From the NCBI GenBank assembly GCA_041750655.1, contig JBGSYZ010000012.1, positions 1-63,001 of the forward strand: DNA of 63,001 bases. Direction: 5' to 3'. The stretch is from Minisyncoccia bacterium (GTDB lineage Bacteria > Patescibacteriota > Minisyncoccia > Phycocordibacterales > UBA918). Shown piece after piece: positions 18,950 through 31,808 of this stretch; the stretch's first letter is position 1; every line of letters starts with the position of its first letter. A model generated the notes under the pieces. That model was not told where the DNA came from. It worked only from the letters and a program-made list of their open reading frames with translations, and did not search any database. The translations under genes and the position numbers were made by a program.

Positions 18950-19243
18950 TTAATTATGAATTCCGTCCCATTCATGAAGTTTTTGTGGTTTTTTCTCGTT
19001 CAACCAAATTTCCATCACATTGGCTACAGCGCCAAGCTTGGTACCAGTCACAAAACGCTGGATTATACTAATTAATTTAGCCAATGTTTCAGAATCAGGG
19101 ATTATCGAATCTCCCTCTATACCTTCCAGTAATACATTGAGGAGTTTTTGTACTTCATCATTGTAAAATCTTTCACCGAGCACCTCAGGATTATCAAGAG
19201 TTTTTTGAAGCCACTCTTTGGTGTAGATTGGATACTCTGCCAT
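18950..19243 (-). CDS. Hypothetical protein
   Basis: ORF; probable start ATG 19243 with GGAG SD; terminator-like hairpin at about 18920-18946. Confidence 0.6.
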   Translation of the reverse strand: MAEYPIYTKEWLQKTLDNPEVLGERFYNDEVQKLLNVLLEGIEGDSIIPDSETLAKLISIIQRFVTGTKLGAVANVMEIWLNEKKPQKLHEWDGIHN

Positions 19244-27955: not shown

Positions 27956-29695
27956 ATGAGTTCCTTGGAGGAAGTACAGAATAAAGTTATTGAACGTGGT
28001 GAAAAACCTCAGAAAGACCCGATGGGTCATCTTTATGTAGAGGAAATGCTTCGCAATGCCGACTTCCAAGGAGACATCTCCACCAACAAAGAAGACTTGG
28101 AGGCTTTTAGCACCGACGAAAGTATTTTTTCTGTCCGTCCGCAAATCGTTATTGCTCCAAAAACTAAAAAAGATTTAGAAATAGCGGTGAAGGTTATCGA
28201 CGTGCATACTGCCACCTTTCCTACTCTTTCCTTGACCCCTCGGGCCGCTGGTACCGGACTTTCTGGGGGTTCACTGACTGACTCTATTGTTGTAGATGTA
28301 AAAAAATATTTAAACAACGTTGGTGAATACAATGAAAAAGACGGAACCATCACCGTCGGCCCGGGCGTGATGTTTCCGGTGGTAGAAAAAATCCTTAAAA
28401 CTCATGGTCGCTACCTGCCCGCTTTCCCAGCAAGTAAAGACATTTGTGCCATTGGTGGGTGTGTGGGTAACAACTGTGCTGGCCCAGACTCACTGCGTTT
28501 CGGACACTTTGCCGAATCAGTCGCTAGCTTGGAAGTAGTTTTAAAAGACGGCAACACCTACACCCTCAAACCACTTTCCTACAACGGCTATAAAGCGCTT
28601 ATCCAACAAAAAAATGCTCATGCCGAAATCGCTAAAGCGGTCTACGAACTCATTAAAAAAAATGAAAAAGAGCTCCACGACGCTCGCCCCCACACCAAGA
28701 AAAACACGGCAGGCTACGCGCTGTGGGATGTGGTCACTCCATCGATCAAAGAGTTTGAAAAAGGTGAAGGCACGTTTGATCTCACCCGTTTAGTTTCTGG
28801 AAGCCAGGGTACGATTGGTATTCTTTCTAGTATCACTCTCAAAACTGAACCAATCCATGATCATACGGTACTTTTGACGGTGCCGGTGTACCAACTTGAA
28901 AAGGCTGGTGAACTTATTACCCACGTATTGCAATATAATCCCATTAACGTCGAGTTATTTGATGGTGCCAGTATGGATTTGGCTGTCCAAAACCCGTACT
29001 TCTTCCGTGACCGGATTCCTGGCTTTAATTTCTACCGATTTTTACTTTCTCTGTACACCACCTATAATTTTACATACAAGCGCAAGGCTCCAGAGTTTAC
29101 TCTCCTTATCACCATCGATACCGAAGCGACCGAACACTCAGCTAATGAAATCGTAGCCGCCACTAAGAAAGCGACGGGCTTACCAATTCGAATTGTAAAT
29201 GGCACACATAAAAAAGATATGTTCTGGCAAGTTCGAAACGCTAGTTATACCCTTTCAAAACTTCAAGACCTTACTAAACGTCCGGCTGCTTTCCTAGAAG
29301 ACATGACCGTCCCACCTGAAAATATTTCTCCTTTCTTTACCGATATTAAAAAGCTTCTCAAGAAACACAATGTAACAGCCGCTGTTCATGGCCATGGAGG
29401 TAACGGTCACTTACACTTCTATCCGCTGTTGGATTTTACTCAAAATCAGGGTGATAAAGTAGAGGCAATGTCGGAGGACTTCTTTAAAACAGCCATTAAG
29501 TACGGTGGTAATATTTGTGGCGAACATAATGACGGTATAATCCGCACTCCCCAGCTTTCTAAAATCTTTAACAAGAAAACGCTTGATTTATTCAAGGAGC
29601 TTGAACATCTGTTTGATCCTAAAGATATTTTTAACCCCGGCAAGAAAGTTAATCCTCGCTACGATATTAAGAAGTATTTGCGACACACTAATTAA
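27956..29695 (+). CDS. FAD-linked oxidase (GlcD/D-lactate dehydrogenase-like)
   Basis: RAAGTGLSGG, IGG.VGNN..G, SQGT.GI, HGHGGNGHLH, GEHNDG, NPGK. Confidence 0.9.
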   Translation: MSSLEEVQNKVIERGEKPQKDPMGHLYVEEMLRNADFQGDISTNKEDLEAFSTDESIFSVRPQIVIAPKTKKDLEIAVKVIDVHTATFPTLSLTPRAAGTGLSGGSLTDSIVVDVKKYLNNVGEYNEKDGTITVGPGVMFPVVEKILKTHGRYLPAFPASKDICAIGGCVGNNCAGPDSLRFGHFAESVASLEVVLKDGNTYTLKPLSYNGYKALIQQKNAHAEIAKAVYELIKKNEKELHDARPHTKKNTAGYALWDVVTPSIKEFEKGEGTFDLTRLVSGSQGTIGILSSITLKTEPIHDHTVLLTVPVYQLEKAGELITHVLQYNPINVELFDGASMDLAVQNPYFFRDRIPGFNFYRFLLSLYTTYNFTYKRKAPEFTLLITIDTEATEHSANEIVAATKKATGLPIRIVNGTHKKDMFWQVRNASYTLSKLQDLTKRPAAFLEDMTVPPENISPFFTDIKKLLKKHNVTAAVHGHGGNGHLHFYPLLDFTQNQGDKVEAMSEDFFKTAIKYGGNICGEHNDGIIRTPQLSKIFNKKTLDLFKELEHLFDPKDIFNPGKKVNPRYDIKKYLRHTN

Positions 29696-29841
29696 CTCCT
29701 CTTCCCCGCCACTCACTTTTTTGGTATAAATGGCAGGCGTTTTAAAGCTTTTTAATTTTAATACGTAGTAAGCTTACAAACCTTTTTGGAGATTTGTGAG
29801 TATATTGCTTAAACAATATTTTGGTTTTGTATTGCACTCAA

Positions 29842-29922
29842 CTAATAATATTTCCCAAATATTATTAGCCATCGTCTAACGGCTAGGATTGAAACAATAT
29901 GGGATATTGTTTCAAGGTTCTC
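29842..29922 (+). other. 20-nt copy of the tRNA-Glu 5' end between two perfect 12-bp hairpins
   Basis: 29869-29888 is identical to 29996-30015. Confidence 0.85.
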
Positions 29923-29991
29923 CCCTAAAATTTCAATTTTATGGATGAGAAAATTTACTTAGCTATTTACAAATAAATACAAATATATATT

Positions 29992-30063
29992 GGCCCCATC
30001 GTCTAACGGCTAGGACATATGGTTCTCATCCATAAAATCGGAGTTCGATTCTCCGTGGGGTCA
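29992..30063 (+). tRNA. tRNA-Glu (CTC)
   Basis: Cloverleaf: GGCCCCA/TGGGGTC acceptor stem, TATGG-TTCTCAT-CCATA anticodon arm, CGGAG-TTCGATT-CTCCG T arm; CCA not encoded. Confidence 0.95.
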
Positions 30064-31589
30064 CATTCAGAAACTTGGTCAGAAGTAAGCGCAAAATCTG
30101 GGCGCGCCGAAGGCGCGCTGTATGGCGAGGAAATGAAATCCGTCTTGCGGGCGCGGGCGAATTCGGAGGGCGGGCAAAATGAGATCGAAATAGTTTTGTC
30201 TTTCAGCGCGGGGTTCGTTCCAAAAGAACGAAGAAAATCTCGCATCTCATGGAGATTTTCACTGGTTGCCAGAAACCCCGCGCGTTTTGAATCCAAAATC
30301 CATTTCCGCAGGGGTTCGACCCAATTCTTTCTCTCGGCTCGGGCAGATGAAGATTTTGCTTGAAGCGAGCTTTTTTGACGCATGAGCGCGTCCTTTTTCG
30401 TCAGATATATATCGCGCTCAATGTCGTGGTTTAGGTATAAATCAACAAGTGCGTCGAGCTTCGCTTCAAGCATTTTCAAATCTTCCTTCATCTGCCCGAG
30501 CCGATTTCCCGAAGCGTGGATTTCGTCGTGCTCAAAAACTCCAACTTTTTTGAGCATATAATCTGCCCACGCTTCGGGAAGCGACACTGTTTGAAGCTGT
30601 TCTCTAACTTGGAGAGCGAGCGCATCTTCCATTAAATATCTCTGACCACATTTTCCTTTCTTTTTCGTACAACGATAATAACGATAGCGACCACCCATTT
30701 TTCCAGTACACCACTGCGCGGTTATCATACTTCCACACTCCCCACAACGAAAAAGTCCGGTGAAAGGAAAATTGTGAGATATTTTGCTATGCCTCGGATG
30801 CGCTCGCACGAGAAGTTGTTTCTGCACAGCTTCAAACAGTGTCGGAGAAAGAATTGGCGCAAAGCTTCCGGGAAAATACTCCTCACGATGTTTTGTAAAT
30901 CCCAAGTAGGCACGATTAGTCAGTATTCTTTTCACGGAAGCTTTGCCAAGTGGCGTTCCGGACTTTTGAGCAACACCGTGGTCAGCCAAAAATTGCGACA
31001 GTGAAATGAGGGTATGTGTTCCTTTTACATACTCACCAAACGCGCGGACAATAATTTTAGATTTCACCGGATCAGGTTCGATATTGCGCGTGGTGGGGTT
31101 GTTCACATACCCGAATGGAGCGCGGGTTAGCCATTCTCCTCGTCGCAATTTTTGGCGCATACCTCGCTCCACATTTTGCTTCAAATTGTCAGAATAATAT
31201 TTACTTTGTCCGAACGCCACTTGAAGCATAAAGAGCCCCTGCGGTGTTGGTTCAAACCAAAATGTCGGAAAACGCAAAGAGACGATTTTTGAAGTGTCTA
31301 CGGCGTAAATGATGCGTCCTCCGTCAATACTATTTCTCGCTAGTCGGTCAGGATGCCACGCGAGAATACCAACATTGCCTAACTTTTCAATTTTGAGCAT
31401 CATTTCGCCGAACACTTCTCGTCCCGGACTCTTTGCGCTTTTCGACTCTTGAAATTCCTCAAGAATTTCAAGATTTTCTCTGCTCGCAAATTCACGAAGC
31501 TCCACAAGTTGAGCTGGAATACTCATAACTTGTTTATCATCATCTTCGGTGCTCTTGCGAGCGTAGAGAAAATATTTTGGTTTGTTCAT
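30003..31589 (-). CDS. Large serine recombinase (resolvase, recombinase and zinc-ribbon domains)
   Basis: YARKS catalytic motif, DRLARN, CGECG...YYRC..C, coiled coil; C-terminus reads through the antisense tRNA. Confidence 0.93.
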   Translation of the reverse strand: MNKPKYFLYARKSTEDDDKQVMSIPAQLVELREFASRENLEILEEFQESKSAKSPGREVFGEMMLKIEKLGNVGILAWHPDRLARNSIDGGRIIYAVDTSKIVSLRFPTFWFEPTPQGLFMLQVAFGQSKYYSDNLKQNVERGMRQKLRRGEWLTRAPFGYVNNPTTRNIEPDPVKSKIIVRAFGEYVKGTHTLISLSQFLADHGVAQKSGTPLGKASVKRILTNRAYLGFTKHREEYFPGSFAPILSPTLFEAVQKQLLVRAHPRHSKISHNFPFTGLFRCGECGSMITAQWCTGKMGGRYRYYRCTKKKGKCGQRYLMEDALALQVREQLQTVSLPEAWADYMLKKVGVFEHDEIHASGNRLGQMKEDLKMLEAKLDALVDLYLNHDIERDIYLTKKDALMRQKSSLQAKSSSARAERKNWVEPLRKWILDSKRAGFLATSENLHEMRDFLRSFGTNPALKDKTISISFCPPSEFARARKTDFISSPYSAPSARPDFALTSDQVSECDPTENRTPILWMRTICPSR

Positions 31590-31808
31590 AAATAGATTTT
31601 GGATTCAAAAAAGGAAACTATTAAGATCTCATTTCTTGCTTTCCGCCCGCCCTCCGAATTCGCCCGCGCCCGCAAGACGGATTTCATTTCCTCGCCATAC
31701 AGCGCGCCTTCGGCGCGCCCAGATTTTGCGCTTACTTCTGACCAAGTTTCTGAATGTGATCTAATCATATCCTTTGCGCGAACCTTTTTCCAACAGAACT
31801 CTGACTAA
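30061..31808. mobile_element. tRNA-anchored serine-recombinase element bounded by inverted repeats
   Basis: 30061-30175 is the exact reverse complement of 31645-31759; recombinase gene between them. Confidence 0.7.
31599..31808 (+). pseudogene. Inverted duplicate of the recombinase 3' end carrying an alternative C-terminus
   Basis: Encodes PPSEFARARK...QVSECD identical to the recombinase, then LIISFARTFFQQNSD*. Confidence 0.75.

What the first reader, a model, noticed from the sequence alone, without database searches (positions are those of the whole stretch)
29842..29922. Hairpin-bracketed 20-nt copy of tRNA-Glu just upstream of the recombinase target
Seen: CTAATAATATTT-CCC-AAATATTATTAG, then CCATCGTCTAACGGCTAGGA (identical to tRNA positions 29996-30015), then TTGAAACAATAT-GGG-ATATTGTTTCAA, then GGTTCTC, which matches the tRNA anticodon arm. 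The two hairpins have complementary loops (CCC and GGG) and abut the tRNA-derived segment exactly. Inferred options: a tRNA pseudogene disrupted by hairpin insertion, a scar of an earlier integration, or a short guide-like RNA addressing the tRNA/att site. The last is speculative; I know of no RNA guidance in large serine recombinases.
Basis: partly seen in the sequence, partly recalled or inferred. Interest (0 to 1): 0.65.

Follow-up and report, generated by a model that had tools for sequence, protein, structure and literature searches.

The report
Hairpin-capped tRNA stump before tRNA-Glu
The short tRNA copy between two hairpins is the leftover front end of a glutamate tRNA gene, capped on both sides by a small hairpin repeat that recurs beside many tRNA genes in these ultra-small bacteria; nothing links it to the neighbouring recombinase as a guide.

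Summary
Two perfect 12-bp/3-nt-loop hairpins (29842-29868, 29889-29915) flank an exact 20-nt copy of tRNA-Glu(CTC) positions 5-24.

- **More structure:** a degenerate sense copy of tRNA 30-47 follows, then a perfect antisense copy of tRNA 32-47, a 40-nt AT-rich spacer and the intact tRNA.
- **Hairpin 1:** it is the usual leader hairpin of this genome (box GTATTGCACTCAA, 12-bp stem, CCC loop). The same kind abuts the first base of tRNA-Ala (two genes), Glu(TTC), Trp, Arg and tmRNA.
- **Hairpin 2:** it is the same family in the opposite orientation. It opens a gene-less module of about 105 nt, also seen upstream of tRNA-Glu in four other species and of tRNA-Thr in this genome and three further species. 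The anticodon-derived segment there matches the local tRNA.
- **Recombinase:** the layout occurs without a serine recombinase, and recombinase-linked tRNA-Glu loci occur without it.
- **Close relative:** it keeps the same promoter and tRNA but lacks the whole structure.

Best reading: the stump of a tRNA gene plus a hairpin-capped tRNA-associated module, carried in the tRNA leader. How it arose and what the hairpins do remain open. No transcript data could be obtained.

The parts
29716..29733 (+). Promoter-like extended -10 (TTTTTTGGTATAAAT) followed by a G+C-rich discriminator; inferred start of the tRNA-Glu primary transcript
   Evidence: The motif recurs upstream of tRNA-Glu across the genus. 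It is conserved in the close metagenome relative L090, where it lies about 50 nt from the tRNA. The strict -35/-10 scan does not call it. Transcription was not measured.
29829..29841 (+). Leader box GTATTGCACTCAA, which precedes leader hairpins of this genome
   Evidence: The same box (GAGTAYTGYRCTCAA) lies directly before the CCC hairpins of tRNA-Ala (two genes), tRNA-Glu(TTC) and tRNA-Trp, and in shorter form before tmRNA.
29842..29868 (+). hp1: 12-bp perfect stem with CCC loop; leader hairpin of the kind that abuts tRNA position 1
   Evidence: The homologous hairpin abuts tRNA-Glu(TTC) at C10:45628-45654. G124 has the same box and CCC hairpin abutting a tRNA-Glu stump.
29869..29888 (+). Stump: exact copy of tRNA-Glu positions 5-24 (acceptor 5' strand in part, plus D-arm)
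   Evidence: 20 of 20 identical to 29996-30015. The equivalent copies in G007 (1-24), G041 (1-24, one mismatch) and G101 (decayed) stand in the same place.
29889..29915 (+). hp2: 12-bp perfect stem with GGG loop; same hairpin family inverted; left end of the short 5' module
   Evidence: Counterparts in G007, G112, G041 and G101, and in tRNA-Thr and tRNA-Ser modules, have different stems that all pair: 98.6% of cells paired, 11 of 12 pairs changed on both sides.
29916..29931 (+). Degenerate sense copy of tRNA 30-47 (GGTTCTC--CCCTAAAAT)
   Evidence: Local alignment, 15 of 18.
29936..29951 (+). Perfect antisense copy of tRNA 32-47 (ATTTTATGGATGAGAA); with 29916-29931 it forms an imperfect palindrome
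   Evidence: no shuffle of 2000 reached the score. The analogous palindrome GTTTTCATC-AAT-GATGAAAAC stands before tRNA-Glu(TTC) and GTTTTG-TCT-CAAAAC before tRNA-Thr.
29952..29991 (+). AT-rich spacer up to the tRNA
   Evidence: Variable between species. The right end in other modules carries AATTAAATA.
29992..30064 (+). Intact tRNA-Glu(CTC)
   Evidence: ARAGORN; Rfam RF00005, 58.3 bits.
30003..31589 (-). Context only: large serine recombinase gene whose reading frame ends inside the tRNA
   Evidence: Pfam Resolvase, Recombinase and Zn_ribbon_recom. A 115-bp perfect inverted repeat spans 30061-30175 and 31645-31759.

Best explanation
The feature is a composite in the 5' leader of the tRNA-Glu(CTC) gene, made of three things.

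1. A native leader. A promoter at about 29716-29733 and a box plus CCC hairpin (hp1) once abutted position 1 of a tRNA-Glu gene.
2. The stump of that gene's 5' end, positions 5-24.
3. A gene-less module of about 105 nt that begins with the same hairpin inverted (hp2). It continues with a sense/antisense palindrome derived from the tRNA's own anticodon arm and a spacer, and it is followed by a complete tRNA.

The module belongs to a recurrent family. In that family a 27-nt hairpin (12 bp plus GGG or CCC) caps the broken end of partial tRNA copies lying beside intact tRNA genes.

Inferred steps, not shown:
- The arrangement arose at the DNA level, by an insertion or duplication entering the tRNA gene after position 24 and regenerating the gene. 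The machinery is unknown, acts in trans and recognises structure.
- The stump is a by-product that decays.
- The hairpin and the palindrome are the constrained parts.
- The whole region is transcribed as a leader and removed when RNase P cuts at tRNA position 1.

It is neither part of the serine recombinase's attachment site nor a guide for it.
For: Family membership
- Twelve CCC/GGG-loop hairpins with stems of exactly 12 bp occur in this genome. They abut position 1 of tRNA-Ala (two genes), tRNA-Glu(TTC), tRNA-Arg and tmRNA, and tRNA-Trp with one mismatch. All but the tRNA-Arg copy share the box, which is shorter before tmRNA.
- hp1 carries that box, and its region aligns with the tRNA-Glu(TTC) leader.

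Recurrence
- The order 5' copy, GGG hairpin, anticodon palindrome, spacer, tRNA is found upstream of tRNA-Glu in G007, G112, G041 and G101.
- It is also found upstream of tRNA-Thr(TGT) in G000, G019, G064 and G067.
- A related order stands upstream of tRNA-Ser.
- Longer variants with the same palindrome geometry (sense copy at -64 to -69, antisense copy at -50 to -59) stand upstream of tRNA-Glu(CTC) in G092, G124 and G073.

Constraint
- Hairpin stems differ between loci yet pair in 98.6% of cells, with 11 of 12 pairs changed on both sides. No shuffle of 500 reached this.
- In G101 the 5' copy has decayed while the hairpin and palindrome are intact.

Gain or loss
- A close relative is colinear at 80% nucleotide identity up to 29753 and has the same promoter. 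Its tRNA lies 40 nt further on, with no hp1, stump or hp2.
- Of 34 tRNA-Glu loci in the genus, 4 have the short module, 2-3 the long one and 27 none.

Independence from the recombinase.

RNase P RNA is present.
Against: - No mover was identified. Y1 (IS200/RAYT-type) transposase is absent from this 98.8%-complete genome, although 18 of 31 relatives have it.
- A plain insertion model does not explain why the interior of the module carries sequence matched to the local tRNA.
- Conservation of the hairpin and palindrome while the spacer diverges suggests a host-level function more than a passive scar.
- Predicted minimum-free-energy folds pair the antisense stretch with the real tRNA in G000 and G007, which fits an RNA role.
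- Part of the hairpin set used for covariation was found by searching for palindromes, which inflates the paired fraction.
Confidence: 0.55

Rival explanations
1. A functional leader RNA. The module is kept because, as part of the pre-tRNA, it controls folding or maturation. The antisense stretch would clamp the anticodon arm of the nascent tRNA. The 12-bp hairpins with a fixed loop would act as processing or protein-binding signals measured from the loop.
For: - Perfect pairing is maintained through compensatory changes.
- The hairpin and palindrome are conserved while the spacer and stump decay.
- The antisense stretch matches the real tRNA at 16 of 16 positions (ours) and 14 of 14 (G007).
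- Minimum-free-energy folds of the G000 and G007 precursors pair it with the tRNA.
- Hairpins abutting position 1 are common in tmRNA leaders across the genus, 13 of 28 by a strict rule.
Against: - Distribution is patchy: most tRNA-Glu genes of the genus, and a close relative, do without it.
- The hairpin occurs in both orientations relative to transcription, so an RNA loop reader would see CCC in one case and GGG in the other.
- There is no significant strand bias of G-U over A-C mismatches outside the loop-closing pair: 10 against 5, p = 0.3.
- In G041 and at tRNA-Thr the predicted fold leaves the tRNA free.
- The local sense copy is transcribed first and can sequester the antisense stretch.
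- An earlier scan note on a similar 'fold-back leader' reading was later marked down.
Confidence: 0.2
2. A one-off local accident. A tandem duplication of the tRNA-Glu 5' region was followed by decay, and the palindromes were created and perfected by template switching. It would have no family and no function.
For: - Partial tRNA genes are common by-products of rearrangement and integration (PMC9897764, abstract).
- The stump lacks its first four bases and the sense anticodon copy is degenerate.
- Tandem slippage clearly occurs in neighbouring leaders, for example the three 80-nt units upstream of tRNA-Ala.
Against: - The same ordered architecture, with a homologous hairpin, recurs at other tRNAs and in other species.
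- The hairpin family has a consensus (TGAAAYAGTCT-GGG-AGACTRTTTCA), occurs in 62 of 128 genomes, and gives about 105 hits against about 15 for the control pattern.
Confidence: 0.08
3. Recombinase-related. The region is a second or pseudo attachment site of the adjacent large serine recombinase, or encodes an RNA that addresses it to tRNA-Glu. The inverted copies at 29936-29951 and 30023-30038 could serve as inversion sites.
For: - It lies next to a serine recombinase gene whose frame ends inside the tRNA.
- G041 has both the module and such a recombinase, and G092 has a 74%-identical recombinase and a long module.
- The 16-bp inverted repeat is real.
Against: - The module occurs without the recombinase (G007, G101, and tRNA-Thr on C17) and the recombinase without the module (G109, G015, G133, G060, G022).
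- The recombinase junction, marked by the start of the 115-bp repeat, is at the tRNA 3' end.
- Inversion between the 16-bp repeats would split the tRNA and create no new gene (inference from the sequence).
- No RNA cofactor is known for large serine recombinases (established knowledge).
Confidence: 0.03

Closest known systems
tRNA-linked repeats (TLRs) of Escherichia coli
   Same: Gene-less units inside tRNA or rRNA operons. Each carries an exact copy of 18-19 bp of the neighbouring stable-RNA gene's end. They are co-transcribed and occur in one to five copies per locus. Most have no known function (PMC8144298, introduction and discussion).
   Different: TLRs lie downstream and repeat the 3' end. 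Here the unit lies upstream and repeats the 5' part (to position 24). It also carries a family-specific 12-bp hairpin and a sense/antisense anticodon palindrome. There is no sequence relationship.
Partial tRNA genes at junctions of integrated elements (attL/attR duplications)
   Same: A direct repeat of a tRNA segment flanks inserted DNA while one intact tRNA is kept. The locus is an integration hot spot with a recombinase next door. Partial tRNA genes are typically by-products of integration (PMC9897764, abstract).
   Different: The DNA between the repeats is only about 103 nt and encodes nothing. The repeat is the 5' part, so the promoter is displaced. The insert carries sequence matched to the local tRNA. 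The adjacent serine recombinase joins at the other end of the tRNA.
REP/REPIN and other small palindromic repeats (mobilised by RAYT Y1 transposases); IS200/IS605-derived PATEs
   Same: A dispersed family of short perfect or near-perfect hairpins with a weak consensus, found in intergenic DNA in both orientations and sometimes in inverted pairs.
   Different: No Y1 transposase is found in this genome. The hairpins sit specifically at boundaries of tRNA-derived sequence. Stem length (12 bp) and loop (GGG or CCC) are fixed while stem sequence drifts with compensation.
Large serine recombinase att sites (phiC31, Bxb1, A118 type)
   Same: Imperfect inverted repeats lie next to a large serine recombinase gene.
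   Different: There is no co-occurrence with the recombinase across loci. The geometry is unlike 40-50-bp att sites centred on a dinucleotide. The junction is elsewhere (30061).
tRNA-mimicking leader modules noted earlier in this scan (unpublished AI notes e1-1034738, e1-2516436, e1-1142963)
   Same: A copy of the tRNA's first 24 or so bases, then a co-varying hairpin and an antisense stretch to the same tRNA, in the leader of tRNA genes of Patescibacteria.
   Different: Those notes concern other tRNAs and genomes and are unverified. This locus adds three things: a second hairpin (the native leader hairpin), a link of all module types to one 27-nt hairpin family, and an empty-site relative.

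Membership tests
E. coli-type tRNA-linked repeats | Lies within a tRNA or rRNA transcription unit | tested here: inconclusive
   It lies between a conserved stable-RNA-type promoter and the tRNA. Transcription was not measured.
E. coli-type tRNA-linked repeats | Ends in 18-19 bp identical to the 3' end of the gene immediately upstream (PMC8144298) | tested here: not met
   The copy is of positions 5-24 (the 5' part) and lies upstream of the gene.
att-site duplication of an integrase-borne element | Direct repeats of a tRNA segment flank the inserted DNA | tested here: met
   A 20-nt exact direct repeat spans 29869-29888 and 29996-30015. G007 has 26 nt.
att-site duplication of an integrase-borne element | The DNA between the repeats carries the integrase and cargo | tested here: not met
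   Only 107 nt (29889-29995) lie between the repeats, with no ORF. No 3'-half remnant of a tRNA was found within about 10-15 kb.
REP/REPIN-RAYT system | Dispersed family of extragenic palindromes | tested here: met
   Twelve hairpins with perfect stems of exactly 12 bp in G000, and 26 with 11 or more of 12 pairs. The family occurs in 62 of 128 genus genomes.
REP/REPIN-RAYT system | A cognate Y1 (RAYT) transposase gene in the genome | tested here: not met
   PF01797 gives no match in G000, which is 98.8% complete. It is present in 18 of 31 relatives.
Serine-recombinase att site or recombinase guide | Co-occurs with the recombinase across loci | tested here: not met
   The module occurs without the recombinase and the recombinase without the module.
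Serine-recombinase att site or recombinase guide | Lies at the recombination junction | tested here: not met
   The junction is marked by the 115-bp inverted repeat starting at 30061, at the tRNA 3' end.
Any curated RNA family (Rfam 15) | Covariance-model match | tested here: not met
   Only the tRNA itself matched in 29000-31000. Leaders of six other loci gave nothing beyond tRNA, tmRNA and 5S.
Hairpin-capped 5' modules of tRNA genes (this genus; unpublished) | Copy of the tRNA 5' part ending near position 24 | tested here: met
Hairpin-capped 5' modules of tRNA genes (this genus; unpublished) | Immediately followed by a 12-bp hairpin with GGG loop, stems co-varying | tested here: met
Hairpin-capped 5' modules of tRNA genes (this genus; unpublished) | Sense plus antisense copy of the local tRNA's anticodon arm about 50-70 nt upstream of the tRNA | tested here: met
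   The segment matches the local anticodon: CTC here, TTC in G007, G041 and G101, TGT at tRNA-Thr.

The most novel reading that the evidence does not exclude
The 27-nt hairpin and the tRNA-matched sense/antisense segment may be the working parts of an undescribed class of gene-less elements. These would home to the junctions between cloverleaf arms of tRNA genes: before position 1, and after positions 18, 24-25 and about 47. They would regenerate the gene as they enter. Base pairing with the target, as RNA or single-stranded DNA, would choose the site, so insertion would be guided by nucleic acid and served by a still unknown host or element enzyme.
Probability: 0.15. Interest if true: 0.8.

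Novelty: new variant of a known kind. Interest (0 to 1): 0.45.

Why it matters
- The recombinase does not need, and is not accompanied by, this structure. That removes a tempting but unsupported idea, RNA guidance of a large serine recombinase.
- tRNA genes of these tiny genomes are embedded in a repertoire of small structured modules that share one hairpin. The modules copy parts of the tRNA they sit beside. I found no description of this in Rfam or in the papers searched.
- If the hairpin proves to be a recognition element, for a processing enzyme or for an insertion machinery, it would explain a large share of the non-coding DNA around stable-RNA genes in Patescibacteria.
- It also matters for annotation: stumps like this one can be miscalled as tRNA genes or att sites.

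Tried and rejected
- **Rfam:** scans of the region and of six other leaders found only tRNA, tmRNA and 5S.
- **Large element with its own tRNA inserted at position 24:** rejected. No 3'-half remnant of a native tRNA turned up within about 10-15 kb on either side.
- **Inverted full pseudo-tRNA between the stump and the gene:** only positions 32-47 are significantly matched.
- **Strand bias of wobble pairs, to decide between RNA and DNA:** not significant once the loop-closing pair is excluded.
- **Resident Y1 transposase as mover:** absent from this genome.
- **Loss of RNase P as a reason for leader hairpins:** RNase P RNA is present.
- **Strict -35/-10 promoter scan:** it calls nothing in 29600-30150. 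The promoter assignment therefore rests on conservation only.
- **Literature searches for a prior description:** none found.

Full report
**Observation.**
- hp1 is at 29842-29868 (12 bp, CCC loop).
- An exact 20-nt copy of tRNA-Glu(CTC) positions 5-24 is at 29869-29888.
- hp2 is at 29889-29915 (12 bp, GGG loop), followed by GGTTCTC.
- The tRNA itself is at 29992-30064.

Alignment adds two pieces. The sense copy continues, degenerate, through tRNA position 47 (29916-29931, 15 of 18). After TTCA comes a perfect antisense copy of positions 32-47 (29936-29951), whose score none of 2000 shuffles reached. Simulated genomes give 0-1 perfect stems of 12 bp or more with a 3-nt loop, so the hairpins are not chance.

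**What hp1 is.** A scan of the whole 906-kb genome found twelve CCC/GGG-loop hairpins with perfect stems of exactly 12 bp.
- Read with a CCC loop, five of them end at or within three bases of position 1 of a stable RNA: tRNA-Ala(TGC), tRNA-Ala(GGC), tRNA-Glu(TTC), tRNA-Arg(TCG) and tmRNA. tRNA-Trp has the same hairpin with one mismatch.
- All but the tRNA-Arg copy are preceded by the box GAGTAYTGYRCTCAA, which is shorter before tmRNA.
- hp1 has that box (29829-29841). Its region aligns with the leader of the paralogous tRNA-Glu(TTC) on contig 10.
- hp1 is therefore the ordinary leader hairpin of a tRNA gene, and the 20-mer is what remains of that gene's 5' end, lacking its first four bases.
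- In G124 the same box and CCC hairpin abut a tRNA-Glu stump.
- Upstream of tRNA-Ala and tRNA-Trp the box and half-hairpin are repeated in tandem units of about 55-80 nt.
- Across the genus, tmRNA leaders often form a hairpin that abuts or includes the first G residues: 13 of 28 by a strict rule.

**What hp2 is.** hp2 is the same hairpin family in the opposite orientation, which is why the loops are complementary. It opens a recurrent module.
- In G007, G112, G041 and G101 the tRNA-Glu(TTC) gene is preceded by a copy of its first 24 bases. A 12-bp GGG hairpin with a different but perfectly paired stem follows (ATGAAATTATGT, ATAAAACAGTAT, ATGAAAGAGTAT). Then come CCGYAGG, the palindrome GTTTTCATC-AAT-GATGAAAAC, a diverged spacer and the tRNA.
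- In this genome, tRNA-Thr(TGT) on contig 17 has the same order. Positions 3-25 are followed by TTGAAATGATTT-GGG-AAACCATTTCAA, GTTTTG-TCT-CAAAACCGTTG, a spacer ending in AATTAAATA and then the tRNA. G019, G064 and G067 have it too.
- The palindrome always matches the local anticodon arm: CTC here, TTC or TGT elsewhere.
- Longer variants upstream of tRNA-Glu(CTC) in G092, G124 and G073 keep the palindrome at the same distance from the tRNA.
- The pattern TGAAA-N6-GGG-N6-TTTCA occurs in 62 of 128 genomes of the genus. It gives about 105 hits against about 15 for the control, almost all of them palindromes.
- In the loci fetched, the hairpin caps the broken end of partial tRNA copies of several kinds: after positions 18, 24-25 or about 47, or before 3'-end copies.
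- On 18 hairpins from different loci, 98.6% of cells pair and 11 of 12 pairs show changes on both sides. No shuffle of 500 reached this. Part of that set was found by a palindrome search, which inflates the figure.

**Relation to the recombinase.** The ORF at 31589-30003 (minus strand) is a large serine recombinase. Its frame ends inside the tRNA, and a 115-bp perfect inverted repeat starts at 30061, at the tRNA 3' end. The module does not track this enzyme.
- It occurs upstream of tRNA-Thr on a contig without any homologue.
- It occurs in G007 and G101 without one in the flanks.
- tRNA-Glu loci with an adjacent serine recombinase in G109, G015, G133, G060 and G022 have a plain promoter and short leader.
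- G041 and G092 have both.

**Gain or loss.** A metagenome contig encodes the same FAD-linked oxidase at 90% amino-acid identity. It is colinear with the window at about 80% nucleotide identity from 25353 to 29753, that is, through the promoter TTTTTGGTATAAAT and about 15 nt beyond it.
- There the tRNA-Glu(CTC) follows after 40 nt. hp1, the stump, hp2 and the palindrome are all absent.
- In the window the tRNA follows after 239 nt.
- Of 34 distinct tRNA-Glu loci in the genus, 4 carry the short module, 2-3 the long one and 27 none.

The structure is therefore a variable addition, not a fixed part of the gene.

**Mechanism.**
- Shown: the parts, their family membership, their recurrence with sequence matched to the local tRNA, their independence from the recombinase, and their absence in a close relative.
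- Inferred: the arrangement arose at the DNA level by an event that entered the gene after position 24 and regenerated it. This left the old 5' end as a stump, which decays in G101 and is truncated here. The region would be transcribed from the displaced promoter and discarded by RNase P, whose RNA is present.
- Unexplained: who makes the event. No Y1 transposase is present in this genome.
- Unexplained: why the interior carries sense and antisense copies of the local anticodon arm.
- Unexplained: why the hairpin and palindrome stay intact while the spacer diverges.
- That conservation, and predicted folds in which the antisense stretch pairs with the real tRNA in G000 and G007, keep an RNA-level role alive as the main rival.
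- Against the RNA-level role stand the patchy distribution, the use of both orientations, and the lack of a significant wobble-pair strand bias.

**Comparison with known systems.**
- The closest published analogue is the tRNA-linked repeats of E. coli. These are gene-less, co-transcribed units that copy 18-19 bp of the neighbouring gene's 3' end, mostly of unknown function (PMC8144298). This feature fails their defining geometry, because it copies the 5' part and lies upstream.
- It resembles att-site duplications (PMC9897764) but encloses no genes.
- It resembles REP-like palindromes but lacks a cognate transposase and is tied to tRNA boundaries.
- Nothing matches in Rfam, and literature searches found no description.
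- Earlier unverified notes of this scan describe the same architecture upstream of other tRNAs. I treated them as leads and re-derived the architecture here.

**Limits.** There are no transcript data. The promoter is inferred from conservation only. Only one genome per species was searched, so recent insertion polymorphism could not be examined.

Noticed in passing
L090 4312-4353 (metagenome relative of the window): The 40-nt leader of the relative's tRNA-Glu(CTC) is a perfect 19-bp fold-back (CGATGGGACCGAATTCGCC-GTAG-GGCGAATTCGGTCCCATCG). Its 3' arm includes the first 10 bases of the tRNA.
   Followed up: no
window 29992-30064 vs L090 4344-4417: The tRNA-Glu(CTC) differs at 11 of 72 positions, mostly as compensated pairs in stems (acceptor, anticodon, T). 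The flanks are about 80% identical. The acceptor and T arm match the tRNA beside the 74%-identical recombinase of G092 instead. This suggests replacement or fast turnover of the tRNA body.
   Followed up: partly
own genome C9:18277-18600, C5:41577-41740, C11:118828-118989: Tandem arrays of 55-80-nt units stand upstream of tRNA-Ala(GGC), tRNA-Ala(TGC) and tRNA-Trp. Each unit holds the box GAGTAYTGYRCTCAA plus the 5' arm and CCC loop of the hairpin. The first unit in C9 follows a promoter-like TTTTTTGGTAATAT. Each 5' arm can also pair with an upstream copy of the 3' arm.
   Followed up: partly
own genome, many contigs: At least 12 tRNA genes of this genome have exact partial copies (11-23 nt) of themselves within 700 nt. 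These include 5' copies upstream of tRNA-Ser (three genes), Asn, Lys(CTT) and Thr(TGT), and 3'-end copies behind Ile, Ala, Leu, Val and Thr.
   Followed up: partly
L094-L123 (tmRNA loci of 30 genus genomes): tmRNA leaders commonly form a 12-21-bp hairpin that abuts or includes the first G residues of tmRNA (13 of 28 by a strict rule). Four are of the 12-bp CCC/TCC type; three of those follow a CTCAA box.
   Followed up: partly
L006 (G007) about 1265-1249, minus strand: About 250 nt downstream of G007's tRNA-Glu lies GATTCTCCGTAAGATCA, a partial direct copy of the tRNA 3' end. It sits next to a GTACTGGTCCTGTAAGGACC motif that recurs in this genome, and looks like the remnant of an element integrated at the 3' end.
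   Followed up: no
own genome C10:1-1308, C14:28916-29044, C16:11-409: Further serine-recombinase homologues or fragments lie at contig ends. One is next to tRNA-Gln(CTG) on C14.
   Followed up: no
own genome C10:23262-23688: RNase P RNA matches the bacterial type-A model over its full length but at 89 bits, below the family's gathering score of 100.
   Followed up: no
own genome C9:19007-19398: Rfam finds a tRNA (37.5 bits) at C9:19325-19398 (minus strand) that ARAGORN did not report. A CCC/GGG hairpin (19175-19201) lies between it and the 5S rRNA gene.
   Followed up: no
L073 (G021) 1389-1560: A tRNA-Arg-like second copy carries the 27-nt GGG hairpin where the variable loop would be. tRNA-derived sequence lies on both sides, so the hairpin alone can be the inserted unit.
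   Followed up: no
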